A program made the position numbers and the translations under genes. This document shows positions 52,691 to 62,129 of a stretch of 64,000 bases of DNA, one piece after another. Origin of the DNA: an uncultured Acidimicrobiaceae bacterium. GTDB lineage: Bacteria; Actinomycetota; Acidimicrobiia; Spongiisociales; ZC4RG35. Under the pieces are notes generated by a model, which worked only from the letters and a program-made list of their open reading frames with translations, searched no databases and had not been told where the DNA came from. The stretch's first letter is position 1; the number at the start of each line of letters is the position of its first letter. The stretch covers positions 28,156 to 92,155 of the forward strand of contig CAZLEQ010000004.1 of the NCBI GenBank assembly GCA_964558575.1. The letters are read 5' to 3'.

Positions 52691-53815
52691 CTATCCGGAG
52701 AGCCCGACCGAGGCGTCGGCGTCACCCTCGGGTGGCGCCTCTCCGTTCTCGGGGGCTTCCCCGTTTTCGGGTGTCTCCCCGTCTTCGGGTGTCTCCCCGT
52801 CTTCGGTTGGCTCCCCGTCTTCGGGTGTCTCCCCGTCTTCGGGTGTCTCCCCGTCGTCACCGTCGCCCGCGTCCGCGAGACCACAATCGACCAGCGTCTC
52901 GTCTGCGTTCGCACCTCCGAAGCGGACCCGTTCGAAGGCGACCACCGCCCGCAGTTGCTCGTCGGTGAGGGCCTGGTGTCCCGGCATGCCACCGGCCACC
53001 GGCTTGTTGGTGTCTCCGTAGGTGGCTTCGAACCCGGCCGATCCCAGGAGGACCCACTCGACATGGTCCTCACAGGCCCCGAAGGTGGTGAGCACGCCGG
53101 TCATCGCCGGGAAGCTTCCCACCCCTTGCCCATCGCCGCCATGGCAGCCGGCACAGGTCGAAGCCGCGGTCACCGCCCCCGCGTAGAGATCGCCTCCCAG
53201 AGCGATGAAGTCGGTGGTGCCTGGGCCGACTCCTCCGCCGGTGAACTCGGAGCCGTCGCAGTTGACGATCTCCCCGGAGATGATGTCGACTCTCAACTCG
53301 GTTCCCTCGCCACAGGCCCCCGTCGCCGAGCCGCCCAATGTGAACAGAGCGAACAACGGTGCGACCAGGAGCAGTCCCACCAGCCAGCGGGGGAGGTCGA
53401 AATTGGTCCTCTCCCTGATGCCGGCGGTGGGGACGGTCACCACCTCCGGCAGGTGGGCCGCCTCTGCGGCGGTGACCTCCGCTGGGGTTGGGGCCCGGGT
53501 GGGGGCTGTAGCGGCAGCGGCGGCAGGGGCAGGGGCCTCCGCCGGCTCCGGGGTCTCGATGACCGGCTCGGGTGCCGCCGGCTCCTCGGCGGCGTCCGGC
53601 TCCTCGGCTCTGGCCGTGTCCTCCGTCTCTATCTGCGGCTGATCTGCCTCCCCCGGACTCGCCTCGCTCGAAGGGGAGGAGACCGCCTCGCCTCCGGCCC
53701 AGGCGGCGAGGATCTCGTCCACGTTCGCCCCGGTCTCGGCGGCGCGCGCCTCCGCCGAGCGCTGTACCAGCGTCTCGGGCAGACCCATCGCCTCGGCTGC
53801 GGCGCTGAGGCTCAC
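52691..53815 (-). CDS. membrane-anchored monoheme c-type cytochrome, CcoO-like, with long cytoplasmic N-terminal extension and acidic C-terminal repeats
   Basis: 374 aa. N-terminus MSLSAAAEAMGLPETLVQRSAEARAAETGANVDEILAAWAGG. One TM. CAGCH heme motif. C-terminal (DGETPE)n tail. Confidence 0.7.
   Translation of the reverse strand: MSLSAAAEAMGLPETLVQRSAEARAAETGANVDEILAAWAGGEAVSSPSSEASPGEADQPQIETEDTARAEEPDAAEEPAAPEPVIETPEPAEAPAPAAAAATAPTRAPTPAEVTAAEAAHLPEVVTVPTAGIRERTNFDLPRWLVGLLLVAPLFALFTLGGSATGACGEGTELRVDIISGEIVNCDGSEFTGGGVGPGTTDFIALGGDLYAGAVTAASTCAGCHGGDGQGVGSFPAMTGVLTTFGACEDHVEWVLLGSAGFEATYGDTNKPVAGGMPGHQALTDEQLRAVVAFERVRFGGANADETLVDCGLADAGDGDDGETPEDGETPEDGEPTEDGETPEDGETPENGEAPENGEAPPEGDADASVGLSG
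52741..52866. repeat. 18-bp tandem repeat (about 7 units, CCCCGTCTTCGGGTGTCT) inside the cytochrome c gene
   Basis: Read directly from sequence. Encodes DGETPEDGETPEDGEPTEDGETPEDGETPENGEAPENGEAP. Confidence 0.7.
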
Positions 53816-54591
53816 GATCCTCCTCCAGGAGCAGATTCGCTGAGATAGGCGACGAGGTCGTCGAGGTCCTCGGCGCTGAGATCGTGCCCCGGGTGCCCAC
53901 CGAACCCCCCGATGATGGCCTCGAATTGCGAAGTGGTGACTCTCGAGCCCACATCGGAGAGGTCAGGGCCGAGTCGCCTCGTGCCGAGGATCTGGTTGGT
54001 GTCGTTGAGTGTCACAGGGCCCAGTCCCACATCGGCTACCACCGGTCGCACCATCTGGGTGTGGCACGCCACACAGCCGGTGACGGCATAGACTTCCTGG
54101 CCACGGAGGGCTCCAGCCGAGAAGGCGATCTCCGAAGTGCGGGCTCCAGGGTTGTCGGTGGGGATCGATGGCCCCACCAGTCCCACCATGACGACGATGA
54201 TGAAGAGCCCGACGATGCCGGCGAGCACCGCCATCGGGTTGTCCTCGACTCCCACCAGCACGGGTGGCTTGTAGGGACCTGCGGGGACAGTCGGAGTGGG
54301 TGCTTCGGCCCGCTTCTCGGGGGTCTCGATCGCTACCTCCGGGGGCTTCGGCTCCTCGGCGGTGCCCGGTTCCTCGGCGACGGGCGTCTCCTCCGTCTCG
54401 GCCTGCGGCTGATCGACCACCTCCGGACTCGCCTCGCTCGAAGGGGAGGAGATCGCCTCGCCTCCGGCCCAGGCGGCGAGGATGTCGTCCACGTTCGCCC
54501 CGGTCTCGGCGGCGCGGGCCTCTGCCGAGCGCTGCACCAGCGTCTCGGGCAGACCCATGGCCTGGGCGGCGGCGGAGAGCTGGTCACTCAT
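53812..54591 (-). CDS. membrane-anchored monoheme c-type cytochrome, CcoO-like (paralog)
   Basis: 259 aa from MSDQLSAAAQAMGLPETLVQRSAEARAAETGANVDDILAAWAGG. One TM. CVACH heme motif. GTRRLGPDLSDVGSR and LVAYL CcoO-like elements. ATGA overlaps on both sides. Confidence 0.7.
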   Translation of the reverse strand: MSDQLSAAAQAMGLPETLVQRSAEARAAETGANVDDILAAWAGGEAISSPSSEASPEVVDQPQAETEETPVAEEPGTAEEPKPPEVAIETPEKRAEAPTPTVPAGPYKPPVLVGVEDNPMAVLAGIVGLFIIVVMVGLVGPSIPTDNPGARTSEIAFSAGALRGQEVYAVTGCVACHTQMVRPVVADVGLGPVTLNDTNQILGTRRLGPDLSDVGSRVTTSQFEAIIGGFGGHPGHDLSAEDLDDLVAYLSESAPGGGS

Positions 54592-56066
54592 CGGGCTCCT
54601 CCGACCTCTCGGCTCACCAGCACCTCCTGGGGGATCGCCCTCCCCCGGACGACGGTTCCGAAGATGATCCCCACATAGCCGAGGATCCCCAAGAACAGGA
54701 CGATCCCGAAGAGCACGCCGATCAGGACCAGAGTGTCGTAGGTGGCGCCGACGCCGCTCGCCCACCCCTCGCCGGTGTCAACATAGGCGGCGCTGTTGGA
54801 CCCGGCGATCCACGAATAGCCGGAGAGTATTCCGGCTGCACCGAGCGAGATGAGCAGACCCACGGCGCCCGAGATGGTTAGACGCTGGAATCTGCGTGCC
54901 TTGGCCTTGGTCTCCAGTTCCTTACCCACCATGCGGGGAAGGGCGGCGAAGCTGACACTCGACACGAGAAGGGCCCCGATGCCGGTGAGGGAGACGTATT
55001 CGACGGCCTCCCAGAAGGCGGTCAACGACGTCACCGAGCCCACTGACCGGAATCCGGCGAGGGCGGCTACGGCGGCGACACCGAACGTCAGGTAGAGACC
55101 GAGGACTCCGGAGAGCACTCCCGGCTTCTCACCCAGTCGAGACCACGATCCCTCCAGTGTCATCGAGACGTTGGCGGCATTGGCCAGTGCTCCGATCGGC
55201 CAGGCGAGGCCGAGGGCCGCGGCCACACCGGCGACCCAGCCGGGGCCGGGCCCGAAGAGCAACTGGGCGGCTCCCCACCAGACCGCTGCGAAACCCAGCG
55301 ACCAGAACCCGACCAGGGCGAGCTGACGGCTGGCCAAGGGGATGTCCAGCTCCTTGACCGTCGTGTAGTACACGAGACCCGAGCCCACCGTGACCAGGAA
55401 CATGGTCACGAACCCGGCGAGGAAGAACGTCTCGGCATACGCGATGGTCACCGCCGAAGCAGCCGGCACCTCGGAGGCCAGGTGGGCGACATAGAGGAGG
55501 GGCAGCCAAATGACACCACCGAGCACGAACCACAGAGTCACGAAGCTGCGCTGCTCCTCGCGTCTGCGAATGGTGTTGACCGTCACCAGGGCGGGCACGA
55601 ACAGCACCGCAGCCAGAGGTAGGTCGAGCCACCAGGCGAGACCGAGCGGCTGACGGCCGTTGCCGAGGCCGAAGGAGATGGCGAGCACGCCCAGGGCGGT
55701 GAGGCCGGCCATTCCGAGGAGGCCGAGCCCGGCGATGCCGGCCCCCCAAAGCCGCGCCCCGGTGAGTCGGGGAAGCACGTAGTAGATCCCGCCGACCAGC
55801 GAAACGGCACCGAAGCCGATCATGAGGGTCAGGTTGGCGGCGCTCTCCAAGCGCCCGTACGGGAGGGGCAAGAGCGATCCAAAGCGGAGGGCGATCAAGG
55901 AGAGGAGCTGGAGGGCGCCTCCCAGGACCAGGAAGACCCCACCCACCAGCAAATGGGTGACTGCGAGGCGGTCTTCGACGCTTCCGCCGCCGAGCAGGGC
56001 TCGCATGTCTGCTGTTCGGGTGTCAGTCAACCGTCTTCCTCGCACCAGAAGGGACGGCGGGAGCAT
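54588..56066 (-). CDS. cbb3-type cytochrome oxidase subunit I (CcoN) homologue lacking the canonical His ligand set
   Basis: 492 aa, 12 TM. GAVSLVGGIYYVLPRLTGARLW aligns with CcoN [23 protein letters not shown], but the TM2 heme His is Asn. Only two His residues occur in the whole protein. Confidence 0.6.
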   Translation of the reverse strand: MLPPSLLVRGRRLTDTRTADMRALLGGGSVEDRLAVTHLLVGGVFLVLGGALQLLSLIALRFGSLLPLPYGRLESAANLTLMIGFGAVSLVGGIYYVLPRLTGARLWGAGIAGLGLLGMAGLTALGVLAISFGLGNGRQPLGLAWWLDLPLAAVLFVPALVTVNTIRRREEQRSFVTLWFVLGGVIWLPLLYVAHLASEVPAASAVTIAYAETFFLAGFVTMFLVTVGSGLVYYTTVKELDIPLASRQLALVGFWSLGFAAVWWGAAQLLFGPGPGWVAGVAAALGLAWPIGALANAANVSMTLEGSWSRLGEKPGVLSGVLGLYLTFGVAAVAALAGFRSVGSVTSLTAFWEAVEYVSLTGIGALLVSSVSFAALPRMVGKELETKAKARRFQRLTISGAVGLLISLGAAGILSGYSWIAGSNSAAYVDTGEGWASGVGATYDTLVLIGVLFGIVLFLGILGYVGIIFGTVVRGRAIPQEVLVSREVGGAR

Positions 56067-56204
56067 AACTACTTCGTGGATTCAGTCCGTCACTGCATTG
56101 GGGACTGTCGGTGTCACGACCGCCGGGTTCTCGAACCAGGACCCACCTGTGGTAGAAACGAACCGACAAACGTCTTTTCCGCGTCTGGGATCTACGTAAA
56201 GAAC

Positions 56205-56834
56205 ATGTATCGCCTCGCAGAATTAAGCGACCTCCGCCGCAGGAGGATCGGCGGCGGCCTGCTCTTCCTCGGTTTGGCGGGCCTCGTACTCGGGGTCATC
56301 TGGATTCACTGGTCGTCGATCCCCGAGACCGAGTCGGTCAACGGTGTCGAGGTCCCGGTCGTCGTCGACTACCTCAACTGGTGGCCGCGCGGGATCCTCT
56401 GGAAGGGGGTCGGGTATCTGGTAGTGCTCGGAGCGACCACCATGACCTTGGTCGGGGCCACCTTCCTCTGGGTGCTCAATCAGAGAATGACCTGGGCCCG
56501 TGCCACCGTGGCCGCCATCATCGCCTGGGTAGCCCTGGTGTTCTACTTCGGGATGGTTCCCTCGGAGTGGCTCAACTACGCCCAGACCGACCTCGATTGG
56601 TCCTCGCAGCGGGCCGCCATCACCATTCCCCCGTTCCTGGTCCTGGGCAACACCGTCGACATCAGTTGGGCCGTGATCAAAGACTCCATCCAGATGGGCT
56701 ACAGCCTCGGCTTGCTCGGTTTCGCCGCCGTCCTCGCCATCCAGATGCAGAAGATGAAGGAGGGGCGGCCCCCCAGCGCCGCACCCGCCGAGAAGAAGTC
56801 GCCATACGGCCGCCCGCTGGTGAGGGGGAACTGA
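56205..56834 (+). CDS. 4-TM membrane protein, first gene of the Rieske/cytochrome b operon
   Basis: 209 aa from MYRLAELSDLRRRRIGGGLLFLGL. No family recognised. Its stop overlaps the ferredoxin ATG. Confidence 0.45.
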   Translation: MYRLAELSDLRRRRIGGGLLFLGLAGLVLGVIWIHWSSIPETESVNGVEVPVVVDYLNWWPRGILWKGVGYLVVLGATTMTLVGATFLWVLNQRMTWARATVAAIIAWVALVFYFGMVPSEWLNYAQTDLDWSSQRAAITIPPFLVLGNTVDISWAVIKDSIQMGYSLGLLGFAAVLAIQMQKMKEGRPPSAAPAEKKSPYGRPLVRGN

Positions 56835-57283
56835 TGCCCAAGGGAGTCATCGACGAGACCCCGCCGATCAGGGACGACTACCAGCTCGCGGTGGTCGAGG
56901 GTGACTACTTCGCCGACAAATTGCGCCCCAAGCAGTTCCTGCACATCGACCAGTCGGAGTGCATCCTGTGTGAAGGATGTGTCGACATCTGCCCGTGGAA
57001 GTGCATCCACTACCTGTCGCTCGACGCCATCGCCGAGGCGGTCAACGTGGACCACCCCGGGGAGGACACCCAGAACATGGGTTTCTTCATCGTCGACGAG
57101 GACGAGTGCACCCGGTGCGCGCTGTGTATCGACAGATGCCCGACCAACGTCATCACCTTGGGCAAGTTCGAAGGCTCGCTCGCCGAACAGGCGCAAGAGC
57201 TGGGTCTCGACCGTCGTCCCTGGGACTTGGACACCGGGCAGCGTGACTTCAAGAATGGTTACTCGTACGGGATGCGCTGGTAG
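56834..57283 (+). CDS. 2x[4Fe-4S] ferredoxin-like protein
   Basis: CILCEGCVDICP and CTRCALCIDRCP cluster motifs. Confidence 0.75.
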   Translation: MPKGVIDETPPIRDDYQLAVVEGDYFADKLRPKQFLHIDQSECILCEGCVDICPWKCIHYLSLDAIAEAVNVDHPGEDTQNMGFFIVDEDECTRCALCIDRCPTNVITLGKFEGSLAEQAQELGLDRRPWDLDTGQRDFKNGYSYGMRW

Positions 57284-57299: not shown

Positions 57300-58076
57300 A
57301 TGGCCAACGGAAACGGCAGAGTCGGACTGAGAGAGCGAGTAAGGGAGGGCGCGGAGAAGGTCTGGAACTCACAGGTCGCCGAGTCGATCATGCGTCCCGG
57401 CTCACCGTTCAAACAGGGATACTCGGACAGCCCGAGGAACCGCTCCTACGTGGTGATGAACAACGTGCTCTATCACCTCCACCCGGTGAAGGTGAAGCGG
57501 CACGGGGTGAAGCTCTCCTACACCCTGTGCCTCGGGGGCTTGAGCTTCTTTCTCTTCATCCTGCTCACCATCACCGGCATCTTCCTGATGTTCTATTACA
57601 CCCCGACCGCGGAACTCGCCTACTCGGACATGGAGGCCCTGTCGACGGACGTGGCCTTCGGGTCGCTGGTGAGGAACATGCATCGGTGGGGAGCCCACCT
57701 GATGGTGTTGTCGGTTTTCCTCCACATGAGCCGGGTGTTCTATCACGGGGCCTACAAACCGCCGCGTGAGTTCAACTGGGTGGTGGGCGTGGTCCTTCTC
57801 TTCCTCACCCTGTTCCTCTCGTTCTCCGGCTATCTGCTGCCCTGGGACCAGCTGGCGCTGTGGGCGGTCACCGTGGGCTCCAACATGGCCGGTTTCTCAC
57901 CGGTGATCGGTGAGCAGGTCAAGTTCGCCCTCCTCGCCGGGGTGGAGGTGACCGGGGCGACGTTGCTCCGCTTCTATGTGCTCCATGTGCTCGCCTTCCC
58001 GTTCATCCTGGTCATCTTCCTGGCGGTCCACTTCTGGCGGGTCCGCAAGGACGGCGGAATCTCGGGGCCCTTGTAA
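57300..58076 (+). CDS. cytochrome b6-type (split cytochrome b, N-terminal heme-binding half)
   Basis: 258 aa, four TM. Bis-His pairs ([12 protein letters not shown] and [22 protein letters not shown]). PetB/QcrB N-domain pattern. Confidence 0.85.
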
Positions 58077-58085
58077 GGAGTATCG

Positions 58086-59147
58086 ATGGTGGAGATCCCA
58101 GAGAGCCTGCTGAGACGATCGGCCGAAGCCAAGGCCAAGGCCTTGGGCGTGCCGGTCGAACAGGTCCTCGCCGAGATGAAGGGTGAGGGCCCGCCGGTCG
58201 AGCCGCCCCAATTCGAACCCGAGGGCCCGGACACCGAGGACGTGGCCCTCGAGGACGATGCCGCCGAGCCCGTGGAAGAGGTGCCCGCCGACGACGAGGC
58301 AGAAGCCCAGTCGCCCGAGGTCTCCTCGGACATCGAACAGGACGTCTTGCCCACCGAACCCAAGGAAGCCACCGCCCCGCCGGAGGAGACGCCGCGGGCG
58401 ATGGTCGCCGAGGCGGGAGCGGTCGCAGTCGCCGAAGCCGATGAGACCGAGGAAGCCGAGCAGGACGATGACGGTGACGACGGCGAGGAGTCCCCGGAAG
58501 TGGACGTCGAGGACCTGGAGGAAGGCTCCCCGGGGAACGGCTCAGGAAACGGCGCCGGCGACGGCAAGGTGGCCGCGATGGTCAGCCCCCGGCCCTCGGT
58601 ACCTCCGACCGGGCTTCCCGAGGGAGTCCGCACCCAGCGTCTCCTCACGGTGGTCAAGGCCAGGGCGATCCAGAATGTCAAGGCGGAGCCGACCGACAAG
58701 GTGAACACCTGGCCCCATCTCATGCTCATGGAGTTCGGTGCCCTGCTCGCCATCACCGGCCTGCTGGTGATCATGTCGGTGGTGATCCACTCGCCGTTGC
58801 TGGAGCCGGCCAACTTCAACGCCACTCCCAACCCCTCCAAGGCGCCGTGGTACTTCCTCGGGCTCCAGGAACTGCTCAGCTACTTCGATCCGCAGATCGC
58901 CGGGGTCATGGTCCCGCTGTTCATCGGGATGATCGGGTTCATGCTGATTCCCTACGTCGACAAGAATCCCTCCACCCGGCCCACCGACCGCAAGTTCGCC
59001 ATCATGCTCTACTCGTTCTTCCTGGCGGGATCGGCGACCCTGACCATCATCGGCGTTCTGTTCCGGGGTCAAGGGTTCAATTTCACCTTTCCGTGGCGGG
59101 ACGGAGTGTTCTTCGACGACCTGAAAGACTGGGTGCACTTCGAATGA
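58086..59147 (+). CDS. cytochrome bc complex subunit IV (PetD-like) with long acidic N-terminal extension
   Basis: AAGGAG SD. C-terminal 3-TM PetD-like domain (NTWPHLMLMEFG...KAPWYFLGLQELL). N-terminus MVEIPESLLRRSAEAKAKALGVPVEQVLAEMKG followed by an E/D/P-rich region. Confidence 0.8.
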   Translation: MVEIPESLLRRSAEAKAKALGVPVEQVLAEMKGEGPPVEPPQFEPEGPDTEDVALEDDAAEPVEEVPADDEAEAQSPEVSSDIEQDVLPTEPKEATAPPEETPRAMVAEAGAVAVAEADETEEAEQDDDGDDGEESPEVDVEDLEEGSPGNGSGNGAGDGKVAAMVSPRPSVPPTGLPEGVRTQRLLTVVKARAIQNVKAEPTDKVNTWPHLMLMEFGALLAITGLLVIMSVVIHSPLLEPANFNATPNPSKAPWYFLGLQELLSYFDPQIAGVMVPLFIGMIGFMLIPYVDKNPSTRPTDRKFAIMLYSFFLAGSATLTIIGVLFRGQGFNFTFPWRDGVFFDDLKDWVHFE

Positions 59148-60037
59148 CGTTCGCCAACTGGATTCTCGTCGCCGTCGCGGTATTCGCCATCCTCGGAGCG
59201 GTTGGCGCCTTCACCATCGCCTTTCGTCGCACCAGGGCCGAGCGGCCCGATCCCACGGCGGGGGTCTCCGATGAGACCCGACGGGCCGACCGGTCGATGA
59301 TTGGGGTGCGCGTCGACCCGATCCCCGTGCCCGAGGCGGAACCAGATGAAGTCGACGAGACCCCTGAAGTCGGAGAAGCCGCCGAGGGGGAGCCGTCCGA
59401 GGGCAAGGAGGAGAGGGAACTGGTTGGCGCCGGGGCCGCGGTCGAGGTCGTCGAGGCCCAGCGTGTCGTCGAAGTCAGCCCCGAGGAGTCCGGTGTCAGC
59501 CGGCGTCAGTTCTTCAACCGCGCCATCGGCGCCACCTTCGGGTTGTTTCTCGGTCTGCAAGGTGTCTACTACCTGGCCTTCTTCTGGCCGAAGCTGAGCG
59601 GCGGCTTCGGCACCGACGTCGATGCCGGGTCCCTCGAGGCTCTCTCTGCCCAGACCGTCAATCCCGATGGTTCGGTGGTGCCGGTCTTCGTTCCCGAGGC
59701 GCGGGCCTACATCGTCCCCGCCCCCGACACCCTCTCCAGTCAGTACGAAGGGCGCGACGTCGCCGCCGGCGGTTTCATGGCCCTTTTCCAGCGATGCGTC
59801 CACCTGGGATGCCGGGTGCCGTGGTGCTCCACCTCGATCGGGTTCGAATGCCCCTGCCATGGGTCCCGGTACAACTCCATCGGCGAATACTTCTCGGGCC
59901 CGGCGCCGAGGAACCTCGACCGTTTCGTGGTCGAGGTCAGAGAGGATCGCTTCATAGTCCGCACTGGCACCATCATCGAGACGCCCCGCGCTCCCCGAGC
60001 GAGTGTCTCGTATCCACAGGGCCCGAGTTGCATCTGA
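59144..60037 (+). CDS. Rieske [2Fe-2S] iron-sulfur protein (Tat substrate)
   Basis: ATGA overlap with subunit IV. TM/Tat motif SRRQFFNRAIG. CVHLGC...CPCHGS cluster boxes. Confidence 0.85.
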   Translation: MTFANWILVAVAVFAILGAVGAFTIAFRRTRAERPDPTAGVSDETRRADRSMIGVRVDPIPVPEAEPDEVDETPEVGEAAEGEPSEGKEERELVGAGAAVEVVEAQRVVEVSPEESGVSRRQFFNRAIGATFGLFLGLQGVYYLAFFWPKLSGGFGTDVDAGSLEALSAQTVNPDGSVVPVFVPEARAYIVPAPDTLSSQYEGRDVAAGGFMALFQRCVHLGCRVPWCSTSIGFECPCHGSRYNSIGEYFSGPAPRNLDRFVVEVREDRFIVRTGTIIETPRAPRASVSYPQGPSCI

Positions 60038-60059
60038 TGGTCGAGATGGAGGCCGGGAA

Positions 60060-61766
60060 GTGACCGCCGACGTAGTCATCGTCCTCGCCGTCGTCGCCGG
60101 GATCATCTGGCTCGGTTTGATGCTGGTCTCGGCGCTGAGGAACCGGGGTGGGGTGGAGGAAGTCGCTCCCAACCTCAAGCCCGGCATCGACGACCAACAG
60201 CTCGAGACCAGGCGGCTCGAGGGAGGACAGAAGGCGGCCATCGCCTTCTCCGCCTTCCTCGCCATCTCACTGCCGCTCTACTTCCTCGGCGAGAACAGCC
60301 GCCAAGAGGGGTTCGTGGAGGAGTTCGCAGAGGCCTCCGTCGAGCGGGGTGAGCATCTGGTCGAGGAGTTCGCCTGTTTCGACTGCCACGGCCCGCTCGG
60401 CTCCGGCGGCTCGGCGCCGTTCGTCGAGCAGCGATCGGGCATCAGCGTCTCGTGGGCGGCTCCCCGGCTCGATGACATCCTTTATCGATACGACGAGGAC
60501 GCGGTCAACTTCTGGATCACCTATGGCCGGGGCAATACGCCGATGCCGGCATGGGGTCTCGCCGGGGGTGGCCCGATGAACGAGAATCAGGTCGAAGACG
60601 TGGTCAACTATCTGGCGACCATCCAGATACCCCAGCAGGAGGCGGTCGACCACACCCCGCTCCTGATCGACCAGGAGCTCGGGCGGCTCGCCAATGCTGC
60701 GGGTACCGTCGAGCAGGCGATCATCAACCAGGCTCAGACGCTCGCCGAGATCGACCAGGCGCCCGAGGATCTCGCCGTCATCGGGCCTCTTGCCGACCGG
60801 GCGGTCGAGATCGTCGACAATCCGGACGACGGCATCGACACCGACGGTGACGGGCTCTCCGATGCTGCCGAGGCGGAGTTGTCGGATATCTCGGCACGGG
60901 CCGTGGAGCACTTCCGGGTGATCGAGCCCGTGACCCTCGACCCCGAGACTCCCGATGCCGAGCTGGTCGACGCAGTCCTCGCCGAGATGGAGGCAGCTCT
61001 CGACACCAATCCCGTATTCGAGATCTACATCAACCGGATCGAGGCAGCCCTCGAGGGCGACGAGATCAGTGAGGAGTCCCCAGACACCGATGGCGACGGA
61101 ATCTCGGATGCCGCGGAGGGTGCGATCAGTGGTCTGATCTCGGAGGCGAGCTCGGCCACCGTCCCCTCGGGGGTCACCCAGATCGACCTCGATCCGACCA
61201 ACCCCGAGACCACTGGTGACCCCGACCTCAGAACGGCCAATTCGATGGTCGGAGGGCTCGAGTCGATTGCCATCAACCTCAGGGTCGCCGTCGAGAACGT
61301 CGAGCGAATCCGACCCCAGCAGGAGGCCGGTCTCCAATTTCTGGTCGATTCCGCCGAGAGGGCGGCCTGGGAGGTCGATTTCGCCGGGGTCGCCGCGGCG
61401 ATGGGCGGTTCCGAGGACGACGCCCGGCGGGCGGTTGCGCTATTCAACGCCTACTGCGCCCGGTGCCACACCGCAGGTTTCTCCGCCGGCATGGCCTACA
61501 CCCAGGAGATCGGCTCCGGCGGATTCGGCCCCGCTCTCTGGGACGGGAGACCGGTGGTCCAGTTCGGCGACGAACCGGCAGACCCGGATCAGACCGACCT
61601 GCTCGTCGACTTCATAATCAATGGATCTCAACCCGAGACGCCCTACGGGCTCAACGGGTTCGGGTCGGGTCGGATGCCCGCGTTCGGCGCCGTCCTCGAC
61701 CAGGACGACATCGACCTCCTCGCCCGCTATCTCCGCGCCGGCAATCTGAACGGAATGGAGGACTAG
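60060..61766 (+). CDS. membrane-anchored diheme c-type cytochrome with an inserted domain of about 330 aa carrying thrombospondin-type-3-like Ca-binding repeats
   Basis: GTG start with GGAGG SD. N-terminal TM. Heme motifs CFDCH and CARCH. DTDGDGLSDAAE and DTDGDGISDAAE (DxDxDGxxD) loops between them. Confidence 0.7.
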   Translation: MTADVVIVLAVVAGIIWLGLMLVSALRNRGGVEEVAPNLKPGIDDQQLETRRLEGGQKAAIAFSAFLAISLPLYFLGENSRQEGFVEEFAEASVERGEHLVEEFACFDCHGPLGSGGSAPFVEQRSGISVSWAAPRLDDILYRYDEDAVNFWITYGRGNTPMPAWGLAGGGPMNENQVEDVVNYLATIQIPQQEAVDHTPLLIDQELGRLANAAGTVEQAIINQAQTLAEIDQAPEDLAVIGPLADRAVEIVDNPDDGIDTDGDGLSDAAEAELSDISARAVEHFRVIEPVTLDPETPDAELVDAVLAEMEAALDTNPVFEIYINRIEAALEGDEISEESPDTDGDGISDAAEGAISGLISEASSATVPSGVTQIDLDPTNPETTGDPDLRTANSMVGGLESIAINLRVAVENVERIRPQQEAGLQFLVDSAERAAWEVDFAGVAAAMGGSEDDARRAVALFNAYCARCHTAGFSAGMAYTQEIGSGGFGPALWDGRPVVQFGDEPADPDQTDLLVDFIINGSQPETPYGLNGFGSGRMPAFGAVLDQDDIDLLARYLRAGNLNGMED

Positions 61767-61769
61767 GCG

Positions 61770-62129
61770 ATGTTTCGTGAGCTCTTCAGATCGCTTCTCT
61801 CGGCCAACGTGTTCGTCACCGGCATCATCCTGACCGCGGTCTCGGTGTTGCTCTTCTTCGGCTCCATCTATCTCTTCAACCACACGAACCTGGGCCGACG
61901 TCTCGGATTCCTGGTCACCGGTGCGGCCGTCTTCGGCTGGTTGGCCCTCAACTCGATGCTGTTCGTCGTCTACGCGCCACGCGGCCCGATCCCCGAGAGC
62001 ATCGAAGGTCTCAACGCCTTCGAGATCCGCATCATCCCCATCACCTACCTGATGGTGTCCCTGGTGTTGTTCCTGGTGTTCCTGGTCGCCCTCCACCAAT
62101 ACGAGGAGACCAAGGAAGCCGGGGGGTAG
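61770..62129 (+). CDS. small 3-TM membrane protein, last gene of the Rieske/cytochrome b operon
   Basis: 119 aa. Starts 3 nt after the cytochrome c stop. No family recognised. Confidence 0.4.
   Translation: MFRELFRSLLSANVFVTGIILTAVSVLLFFGSIYLFNHTNLGRRLGFLVTGAAVFGWLALNSMLFVVYAPRGPIPESIEGLNAFEIRIIPITYLMVSLVLFLVFLVALHQYEETKEAGG

What the first reader, a model, noticed from the sequence alone, without database searches (positions are those of the whole stretch)
52691..54591. Shared N-terminal cytoplasmic motif on three different membrane subunits
Both CcoO-like cytochromes begin AMGLPETLVQRSAEARAAETGANV[DE][DE]ILAAWAGG. Subunit IV of the bc module (58086..) begins EIPESLLRRSAEAKAKALGVPVEQVLAEMKG. 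This is the same [IL]PE[ST]L[LV][QR]RSAEA[KR]A...G..V[ED][EQ][IV]LA...G helix, in each case followed by an acidic/Pro-rich linker and then the first TM. A common docking or assembly handle linking the two modules is an attractive explanation.
Basis: seen in the sequence. Interest (0 to 1): 0.65.

Follow-up and report, generated by a model that had tools for sequence, protein, structure and literature searches.

The report
Shared cytoplasmic domain on respiratory subunits
Three membrane proteins of a respiratory gene cluster start with the same small, folded, roughly 45-residue domain on a long flexible acidic tether; no library I could search describes it, it is confined to Acidimicrobiia, and it most likely lets respiratory complexes dock to each other or to a shared cytoplasmic partner.

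Summary
It is a domain, not a single helix. A module of about 45 residues opens the FixO/CcoO-like cytochrome (54454-54591, -), the next monohaem cytochrome c (53684-53815, -) and subunit IV of the Rieske/cytochrome b complex (58086-58193, +). AlphaFold2 predicts three helices (pLDDT 92); the subunit IV copy has two. Nothing else in the window matches in six frames.

The two cytochrome copies are about 93% identical in DNA, so they count as one observation. Homology with the subunit IV copy still holds: separately built profiles find each other (hhalign 99.2%, E 2e-19).

An exhaustive profile search found 447 cluster representatives, and the genome matches are almost all Acidimicrobiia. The module occurs 1-7 times in tandem on Ala/Pro/Glu-rich linkers, always before the first transmembrane helix. 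Besides those three carriers there are two more. One is a small membrane protein of the same operon. The other is a polytopic protein next to caa3 oxidase genes. Pfam, NCBIfam, PDB and the literature searches gave no match.

The best explanation is a tethered, sometimes multivalent, protein-docking module. That is an inference: no partner was identified.

In passing, the "CcoN" here lacks all six haem/copper histidines, so this "cbb3 oxidase" is probably not an oxidase.

The parts
53684..53815 (-). Module copy on the monohaem cytochrome c (aa 1-44), three-helix type
   Evidence: HMM 75 bits; AF2 gives helices 3-10, 14-28 and 32-39 with pLDDT 92.3; sequence
53384..53683 (-). Acidic Ala/Pro/Glu-rich linker of the cytochrome c (about 100 aa)
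   Evidence: 20 D/E against 5 K/R, 17 P, 24 A; sequence
53327..53383 (-). Single TM anchor of the cytochrome c (aa 145-163)
   Evidence: Hydropathy scan
52691..53326 (-). Periplasmic monohaem cytochrome c domain (CAGCH) with a C-terminal (GETPED)n tail
   Evidence: PF00034 and PF13442; CXXCH; 18-nt tandem repeat at 52758-52855
54454..54591 (-). Module copy on the FixO/CcoO-like cytochrome (aa 1-46), three-helix type
   Evidence: HMM 82.8 bits; about 93% DNA identity to the copy at 53684-53815
54232..54453 (-). Acidic Pro-rich linker of the FixO-like cytochrome (about 74 aa)
   Evidence: 16 D/E against 4 K/R, 16 P
54175..54231 (-). TM anchor of the FixO-like cytochrome (aa 121-139)
   Evidence: Hydropathy scan
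53812..54174 (-). Periplasmic FixO-type haem c domain (CVACH)
   Evidence: PF02433 at 37.5 bits, above the 29.6 cut-off
54588..56066 (-). CcoN-like 12-TM protein lacking all six canonical haem/CuB histidines (pseudo-CcoN); no module
   Evidence: E 1e-17 to R. capsulatus CcoN 6xkw_n with all ligand positions substituted; only 2 His in total, and no His at those columns in 55 homologues
56205..56834 (+). Conserved membrane protein of unknown family, first gene of the bc operon; no module
   Evidence: No Pfam or NCBIfam hit; homologue present in 79 loci; start codon
56834..57283 (+). 2x[4Fe-4S] ferredoxin encoded within the bc operon; no module
   Evidence: Fer4 families
57300..58076 (+). Cytochrome b6-type subunit; no module
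   Evidence: PF00033 E 7e-47; NF040969 ExtP 297 bits
58086..58193 (+). Module copy on subunit IV (aa 1-36), two-helix type that lacks helix 1
   Evidence: HMM 63.5 bits, profile positions 11-45; AF2 gives helices 6-20 and 24-32, pLDDT about 90 in the helices
58194..58733 (+). Strongly acidic linker of subunit IV (180 aa) ending in the conserved pre-TM segment
   Evidence: 49 D/E against 10 K/R, 23 P
58734..59147 (+). Subunit IV (PetD-like) membrane core with 3 TM helices; the PEWY-equivalent 'APWY' follows TM1
   Evidence: PF00032 at 30.4 bits, above the 20.7 cut-off; TM helices
59144..60037 (+). Rieske iron-sulfur subunit; no module
   Evidence: PF00355 and NF045928
60003..61766 (+). Membrane-anchored dihaem cytochrome c with TSP3 repeats; no module
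   Evidence: PF13442 twice and PF18884; two CXXCH motifs
61770..62129 (+). Small membrane protein; has no module here, but its homologues P0051 and P0059 carry 7 and 3 modules
   Evidence: 46% identity, E 2e-31 to the membrane domain of P0051; homologue present in 44 loci

Best explanation
The motif is a previously uncatalogued domain family of about 45 residues, confined to the class Acidimicrobiia. It is a small three-helix bundle; the N-terminal copy on subunit IV is a two-helix hairpin.

The domain is fused to the cytoplasmic N-terminus of respiratory membrane proteins through a 50-200 residue disordered tether rich in Ala, Pro and Glu, which is acidic. It occurs 1-7 times in tandem, like beads on a string.

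It most likely works as a tethered, and when repeated multivalent, protein-protein docking module on the cytoplasmic face of the membrane. It would hold together, or bring a common cytoplasmic partner to, three units: the Rieske/cytochrome b6 complex, the neighbouring haem-c module built on a ligand-less CcoN scaffold, and a membrane protein associated with the caa3 oxidase locus.

Shown here: the domain exists, it is predicted to fold, it is conserved, its carriers and copy number are as stated, it lies on the cytoplasmic side of the first TM helix, and the synteny holds.

Inferred: that it binds protein, and what it binds.
For: Domain reality
- AF2 gives pLDDT 92.3 for three helices. The subunit IV copy gives two helices at pLDDT about 90.
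- The exhaustive HMMER profile search of 1.84 billion cluster representatives gave 447 hits at E<=1e-3 and 307 at E<=1e-10.
- Profiles built separately from cytochrome-type and subunit IV-type modules detect each other in 104 of 104 and 102 of 102 cases. hhalign gives probability 99.2%, E 2e-19.

Specificity
- Only three hits in the 64-kb window in six frames.

Carriers
- In those loci: subunit IV 68, monohaem cytochrome c 51, FixO-like cytochrome 43, polytopic protein X 7.
- Also homologues of the small operon-terminal membrane protein, with 3-7 copies.
- Protein X lies convergent to the COX2/COX1/COX3/COX4/CtaG genes.

Architecture
- 1-7 tandem copies, always before the first TM helix.
- Linkers are 24-27% Ala, 20-29% Pro and 10-13% Glu, with net charge -6 to -9.

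Selection
- The module is conserved at least as well as the catalytic domain: 0.78 against 0.73, 0.63 against 0.49, 0.65 against 0.52.
- Differences between the two cytochrome copies in the window are mostly synonymous.

Functional linkage of the carriers
- The nine-gene divergent arrangement holds in 45 of 45 loci that contain both halves.
- The two cytochrome modules evolve in concert within genomes: 0.77 identity within a genome against 0.61-0.64 between genomes.

Mobility of the module among subunits of one locus (subunit IV, small subunit, both cytochromes) argues for a function at the level of the complex rather than of one subunit.
Against: - No binding partner or self-association was tested or could be tested here. 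AlphaFold-Multimer was not available.
- The within-genome similarity of the two cytochrome copies may be neutral gene conversion between adjacent genes rather than co-selection.
- The link of protein X to the caa3 oxidase rests only on convergent adjacency in 6 of 9 loci.
- The first subunit IV copy lacks helix 1, so it may not be an autonomous fold.
- Only the best 150 of the 447 hits could be inspected, so soluble carriers or carriers outside respiration may exist among the rest.
- Cytoplasmic location is inferred from homology-based topology (PetD and CcoO are N-in; haem c domains are periplasmic). It was not measured.
Confidence: 0.5

Rival explanations
1. Biogenesis handle. The N-terminal module is recognised only during synthesis, by a dedicated assembly chaperone or a targeting or insertion factor, in the way redox-enzyme maturation proteins bind N-terminal peptides. 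It would ensure ordered insertion and cofactor loading of respiratory subunits and would have no role in the mature complexes.
For: - It is always at the extreme N-terminus, so it is the first part of the protein to emerge from the ribosome.
- It is present on subunits that must be inserted N-in, with large exported haem domains.
- It is restricted to respiratory proteins.
Against: - Tandem arrays of up to 7 copies on long linkers are hard to explain for a chaperone tag.
- Other haem c and cofactor subunits of the same operons carry no module: dihaem cytochrome c, Rieske, cytochrome b6.
- The module moves between subunits of the same locus in different genomes.
Confidence: 0.2
2. Intramolecular or intracomplex regulator. 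The tethered module folds back onto the cytoplasmic (n-side) face of its own complex, for example the cytochrome b6 n-side or the ferredoxin subunit, as a plug or stabiliser. It would not link complexes.
For: - A flexible tether with a highly conserved head.
- A 2x[4Fe-4S] ferredoxin, presumably on the cytoplasmic side, is encoded in the same operon.
Against: - The same module sits on five structurally unrelated membrane proteins.
- Linkers of 50-235 residues are much longer than needed for folding back.
- Copy number varies from 1 to 7.
Confidence: 0.12
3. Helix-turn-helix nucleic-acid binding. The first two helices ('AAEALGxPExLvxR') form an HTH that tethers respiratory complexes to DNA or acts in regulation.
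For: One multi-repeat protein, P0053, scores 39.5 bits against Xre-like-HTH PF20432, summed over its repeats. It also hits several HTH families weakly.
Against: - 37 individual modules scanned on their own hit no HTH family, even at E<=1.
- The modules are net acidic (-0.8 to -2.5 over 32 residues) and sit on strongly acidic linkers.
- The subunit IV N-terminal copy lacks the first helix of the putative HTH.
- No match by sequence or fold in the PDB.
Confidence: 0.04
4. Chance or low-complexity similarity. The motif is an Ala-rich amphipathic helix of no specific function, or a membrane-surface helix.
For: The sequence is Ala-rich. Foldseek finds only designed helical repeat proteins, at E>5.
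Against: - 447 profile hits with a sharp, near-invariant signature: P, RSA-A-A, G.
- A gap of about 60 bits to noise within the window.
- The module is more conserved than the catalytic domains.
- Net negative charge argues against binding to anionic membranes.
- A confident compact AF2 fold.
Confidence: 0.02

Closest known systems
Peripheral-subunit-binding domain (PSBD, Pfam E3_binding PF02817) and the inter-domain linkers of 2-oxoacid dehydrogenase E2 chains
   Same: A helical domain of about 35-45 residues, set between or after long Ala/Pro/charged flexible linkers, that serves only to dock other proteins. There is a superficial pattern match: P-helix-G-[VI]-x-[VL]-x-x-[VI]-x-G-x-G. (The properties of PSBD are from my own knowledge. 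The linker composition here is.)
   Different: No sequence match to PF02817, even at E<=10. The domain here has three helices, is attached to membrane proteins, occurs in 1-7 copies, and has no known partner.
RodZ-type N-terminal cytoplasmic HTH on a bitopic membrane protein (Pfam HTH_25 PF13413), which binds MreB rather than DNA
   Same: A small N-terminal cytoplasmic helical domain, then a linker, then a TM helix. An HTH-like fold is used for protein-protein docking. (RodZ biology is from my own knowledge.) HTH_25 appears weakly for P0053, E 0.032.
   Different: Single modules do not match any HTH family. The module here is acidic, can be tandemly repeated, and sits on respiratory subunits.
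Respiratory III-IV supercomplexes: the obligate actinobacterial bcc-aa3 supercomplex and the Rhodobacter capsulatus bc1-cbb3 supercomplex (PDB 6xkw)
   Same: A quinol:cytochrome c reductase physically coupled to the next haem c/oxidase module through membrane-anchored cytochromes c. Background is reviewed in PMC8361435. 6xkw CcoN is the best PDB match of the window's CcoN-like protein. The gene order here is strictly conserved.
   Different: The known supercomplexes are held together by TM and periplasmic contacts, not by a shared cytoplasmic domain. Here the CcoN-like subunit lacks all redox ligands. No supercomplex has been demonstrated for Acidimicrobiia.
cbb3-type cytochrome c oxidase CcoNOP, which is what public records call these genes
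   Same: The gene order N-O-(P-like) with overlapping start and stop codons. The FixO Pfam match is above its cut-off. The CcoN fold is recognisable at E 1e-17.
   Different: All six His ligands of haem b, haem b3 and CuB are replaced. Scores against the NCBIfam equivalog models are far below their cut-offs: ccoN 96 against 583, ccoO 34 against 201. The third subunit is monohaem, not dihaem like CcoP. Both cytochromes carry the extra N-terminal module.

Membership tests
Helix-turn-helix families (Xre-like-HTH PF20432, HTH_25, HTH_31, HTH_23) | A single domain scores above the Pfam gathering threshold | tested here: not met
   None of 37 isolated modules hit any HTH family at E<=1. Only the five-repeat protein P0053 reaches 39.5 bits, summed over its repeats.
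Helix-turn-helix families (Xre-like-HTH PF20432, HTH_25, HTH_31, HTH_23) | A basic or polar recognition surface compatible with binding nucleic acid | tested here: not met
   Module net charge is -0.8 to -2.5; linker net charge is -6 to -9.
Peripheral-subunit-binding domain (E3_binding PF02817) | Sequence match to the family profile | tested here: not met
   No hit at E<=10 for the window modules, nor at E<=1 for 37 modules.
Peripheral-subunit-binding domain (E3_binding PF02817) | Binds a peripheral enzyme subunit | not testable with these tools
   Needs binding assays or multimer prediction.
cbb3-type cytochrome c oxidase (CcoN catalytic subunit) | Six conserved His ligands for haem b, haem b3 and CuB | tested here: not met
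   Every ligand position is substituted in the alignment to 6xkw_n. The protein has only 2 His. No His occurs at those columns in 55 homologues.
cbb3-type cytochrome c oxidase (CcoN catalytic subunit) | Scores above the NCBIfam equivalog cut-off (TIGR00780) | tested here: not met
   95.8 bits against a cut-off of 583.
FixO/CcoO monohaem subunit (PF02433) | Pfam gathering threshold, a CXXCH haem site and an N-terminal TM anchor | tested here: met
   37.5 bits against 29.6; CVACH and a TM helix at aa 121-139. It falls below the NCBIfam ccoO equivalog cut-off, 34 against 201.
Cytochrome b6f/bc subunit IV (PetD; Cytochrom_B_C PF00032) | Pfam gathering threshold, three TM helices, and a PEWY-type motif after TM1 | tested here: met
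   30.4 bits against 20.7; three TM helices, with 'APWY' after TM1.
G-x-x-V-[DE]-x-[VI]-L, in 35-46 residues, at the N-terminus before the first TM helix | tested here: met
   The three window copies score 63-83 bits against the profile. Invariant columns are P, R, S, A, A, A, G.

The most novel reading that the evidence does not exclude
The module is a lineage-specific 'molecular Velcro'. Copies on different complexes bind each other, or bind a multivalent cytoplasmic hub. They would cross-link three units from the cytoplasmic side: the Rieske/b6 complex, a haem-c relay built on a catalytically dead CcoN scaffold, and the caa3 oxidase. The result would be a respiratory megacomplex or membrane patch. 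Copy number (1-7) would set the valency. This would be a new principle of respiratory supercomplex assembly, and it would give a function to a degenerate haem-copper oxidase.
Probability: 0.2. Interest if true: 0.8.

Novelty: new variant of a known kind. Interest (0 to 1): 0.6.

Why it matters
Acidimicrobiia are abundant in oceans, sponges, soils and sediments and are mostly uncultured, so their respiratory chain is inferred only from annotation.

A domain shared by subunits of up to three respiratory modules, highly conserved and variable in copy number, gives a concrete and testable handle on how these complexes are organised or regulated. Pull-downs, multimer prediction and cryo-EM could all use it.

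It also defines a new family of several hundred members that current domain libraries miss.

The side finding has a practical consequence. The neighbouring 'cbb3 oxidase' has a CcoN without any haem or copper ligand. Public records name these genes cbb3 oxidase subunits. Surveys that count CcoN or CcoO as markers of microaerobic respiration may therefore over-call that trait in this class.

Tried and rejected
- Pfam and NCBIfam scans of the full proteins and of isolated modules found no family covering the module. Weak MIF, DUF3562 and HTH hits were judged to be pattern coincidences.
- The first homologous-protein run, with the 43-aa profile, returned only short fragments. This is a bias of the word index, so it was used only to seed alignments.
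It was replaced by a degenerate DNA pattern scan.
- Literature searches for the motif strings, for Acidimicrobiia with CcoN, and for ligand-less haem-copper oxidases found nothing relevant.
- A Rex operator search of the window gave 0 matches at up to 3 mismatches.
- Pfam and NCBIfam gave no hits for polytopic protein X. NCBIfam gave none for the first membrane protein of the bc operon or for P0051. Pfam found nothing for the protein paired with X (membY), and NCBIfam gave it only one insignificant hit, E 0.11.
- Looking up the window's own contig through P0197 failed; it is not on record.
- Linker 'identity' values are inflated by low complexity and were not used.
Full report
**Layout of the region**

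The window has 62-68% G+C. The region holds two divergent operons.

On the minus strand:
- a CcoN-like protein (54588-56066);
- a FixO/CcoO-like monohaem cytochrome (53812-54591);
- a second membrane-anchored monohaem cytochrome c (52691-53815).

Starts and stops overlap between these genes.

On the plus strand:
- an uncharacterised membrane protein (56205-56834);
- a 2x[4Fe-4S] ferredoxin (56834-57283);
- cytochrome b6 (57300-58076);
- subunit IV (58086-59147);
- a Rieske protein (59144-60037);
- a dihaem cytochrome c (60003-61766);
- a small membrane protein (61770-62129).

**Check of the observation**

Each is followed by an acidic Pro/Ala-rich linker of 75-181 residues and then the first TM helix.

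A six-frame HMM scan of all 64 kb with filters off finds only these three copies, at 65-71 bits. The next hit scores 5 bits.

Four corrections are needed.
1. The two cytochrome copies share about 93% nucleotide identity over about 270 nt, linker included. They are one independent observation plus a recent duplication or conversion.
2. Only one of the two cytochromes is FixO-like.
3. The motif is a three-helix domain, not one helix.
4. The stated coordinates 52691-54591 span both whole cytochrome genes. The motif occupies only their first 44-46 codons.

**Is it a real domain?**

AlphaFold2, run on a 22-sequence alignment of the cytochrome-type module, gives three helices (3-10, 14-28, 32-39) at mean pLDDT 92.3. 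The subunit IV copy lacks helix 1 and is predicted as a two-helix hairpin, with pLDDT about 90 in the helices.

An exhaustive HMMER search with a 45-position profile covered 1.84 billion cluster representatives. It gave 447 proteins at E<=1e-3, 307 at E<=1e-10 and 20 at E<=1e-30. The strongest hits have 2-7 copies per protein.

To avoid circularity I built separate profiles from modules on cytochromes and from modules on subunit IV.
- The cytochrome-type profile detects 104 of 104 subunit IV modules, with median E 8e-8 when scaled to the 1.8-billion library.
- The reverse search detects 102 of 102.
- hhalign gives 99.2% probability, E 2e-19.

**Who carries it, and where**

A degenerate DNA pattern for P-E-x-L-x-x-R-S-A-E-A-[KR]-A was scanned against one genome per GTDB species. 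It hit the 120-locus limit. Nearly all records are Acidimicrobiia MAGs, including OM1/Actinomarina-type and Spongiisociaceae.

In those loci the module sits on:
- subunit IV, 68 times, with 1-6 copies;
- the monohaem cytochrome c, 51 times;
- the FixO-like cytochrome, 43 times;
- a 6-8 TM protein of no known family ('X'), 7 times.

Unclassified cases are truncated or frameshifted versions of the same proteins.

Protein X lies convergent to the caa3-type oxidase genes in 6 of the 9 loci examined. L123 shows the fullest set: COX2-cytochrome c, COX1, COX3, COX4_pro and CtaG. L124 shows only CtaG.

There is a fifth carrier. P0051 and P0059 carry 7 and 3 modules. Their membrane domain is homologous (46% identity, E 2e-31) to the small protein encoded right after the dihaem cytochrome c in the window. 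The window copy has no module.

In every full-length case the modules precede the first TM helix.

By homology-based topology the modules are cytoplasmic. PetD and CcoO have their N-termini inside. CXXCH domains must be periplasmic. The PEWY-type 'APWY' follows TM1 of subunit IV.

**Constraints**

Across orthologues the 32-residue core of the module is as conserved as, or more conserved than, the attached catalytic or TM domain: 0.78 against 0.73 for subunit IV, 0.63 against 0.49 for FixO-like, and 0.65 against 0.52 for cytochrome c.

The linkers are 24-27% Ala, 20-29% Pro and 10-13% Glu, with net charge -6 to -9. The module itself is slightly to clearly acidic.

The invariant positions are P, R-S-A, A, A and G.

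The FixO-like and cytochrome c modules of the same genome are more alike (0.77) than orthologous modules of different genomes (0.61-0.64). This indicates concerted evolution.

**Context**

The order is cytochrome c <- FixO-like <- CcoN-like | membrane protein -> ferredoxin -> b6 -> subunit IV -> Rieske -> dihaem cytochrome c. It recurs throughout the class. All 45 loci that capture both halves have them on opposite strands. The two modules are a conserved unit.

The CcoN-like protein aligns to R. capsulatus CcoN (6xkw_n, E 1e-17), but all six canonical His ligand positions are replaced. It has two His in total. None of 55 near-full-length homologues has His at those columns, and several have only 1-2 His overall.

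The two cytochromes keep CXXCH. This 'cbb3 oxidase' is therefore most likely a scaffold carrying two c-type haems, not an oxygen reductase. Public records nonetheless name it as an oxidase.

**Mechanism**

The evidence has several parts:
- a compact, highly conserved head on a long flexible acidic tether;
- variable valency;
- restriction to respiratory-associated membrane proteins;
- migration between subunits of one locus.

Together these fit best a tethered protein-docking module acting at the level of whole complexes. It would either bind like modules on other complexes or bind a shared cytoplasmic partner. The architectural analogy is the peripheral-subunit-binding domain and its Ala/Pro linkers in E2 chains (my own knowledge). 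There is no sequence relationship.

DNA binding by an HTH is unlikely. Single modules hit no HTH family, only one multi-repeat protein does so by summation, and the module and its linkers are acidic.

A pure biogenesis tag is hard to square with 7-copy arrays, or with the absence of the module from the other cofactor subunits of the same operons.

Docking itself, and the partner, remain inferred.

**Novelty**

No Pfam-A (2025) or NCBIfam (2026) model covers the module. No PDB sequence or fold is related to it. No paper in the searchable library contains the motif strings or describes it.

It is a new domain family doing a known kind of job: an accessory docking domain on a flexible linker. I rate it as a new variant of a known kind, interest 0.6.

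Noticed in passing
window 54588-56066 (-): The CcoN-like subunit has only 2 histidines and lacks all six canonical haem b, haem b3 and CuB ligands. The same is true of 55 Acidimicrobiia homologues. Public records annotate the adjacent gene as 'cbb3-type cytochrome c oxidase subunit II', so this is probably a non-catalytic scaffold that is mis-scored as a microaerobic oxidase marker.
   Followed up: partly
window 53540-53815 and 54310-54591 (-): The N-terminal module plus the first part of the linker of the two adjacent cytochrome genes are about 93% identical in DNA, while the rest of the two genes is unrelated. Across 33 genomes the two modules are more alike within a genome (0.77) than between genomes (0.61-0.64), which indicates recurrent gene conversion or co-selection.
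   Followed up: yes
window 52758-52855 (-): An 18-nt tandem repeat of 5.4 copies at 93% match encodes a (GETPED)n acidic tail at the periplasmic C-terminus of the monohaem cytochrome c.
   Followed up: no
window 56834-57283 (+) and 57300-58076 (+): A 2x[4Fe-4S] ferredoxin is encoded inside the Rieske/cytochrome b operon, overlapping the stop codon of the upstream gene. The cytochrome b6 scores above the NCBIfam cut-off for ExtP (297 against 290), a Geobacter-type selenite/tellurite-operon cytochrome b. This suggests electron exchange on the cytoplasmic side of the complex.
   Followed up: no
window 60003-61766 (+): The membrane-anchored dihaem cytochrome c has bacterial thrombospondin type 3 (TSP3, calcium-binding type) repeats in a long acidic insert between its two haem domains.
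   Followed up: no
window 61770-62129 (+); P0051, P0059: The small 3-TM protein after the dihaem cytochrome c has no module here. Its homologues in other metagenomes carry 3-7 modules, so the module has moved between subunits of the same locus.
   Followed up: partly
L123 8001-9206; L043, L068, L098, L103, L124: A 6-8 TM protein of no known family carries one module. It is usually paired with a second unknown polytopic protein, and it lies convergent to the caa3 oxidase operon (COX2-cytochrome c, COX1, COX3, COX4_pro, CtaG).
   Followed up: partly
window 56067-56204: The divergent intergenic region between the two operons is only about 140 bp. No Rex-type operator (TTGTGAAN6TTCACAA, up to 3 mismatches) occurs there or anywhere else in the window.
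   Followed up: partly
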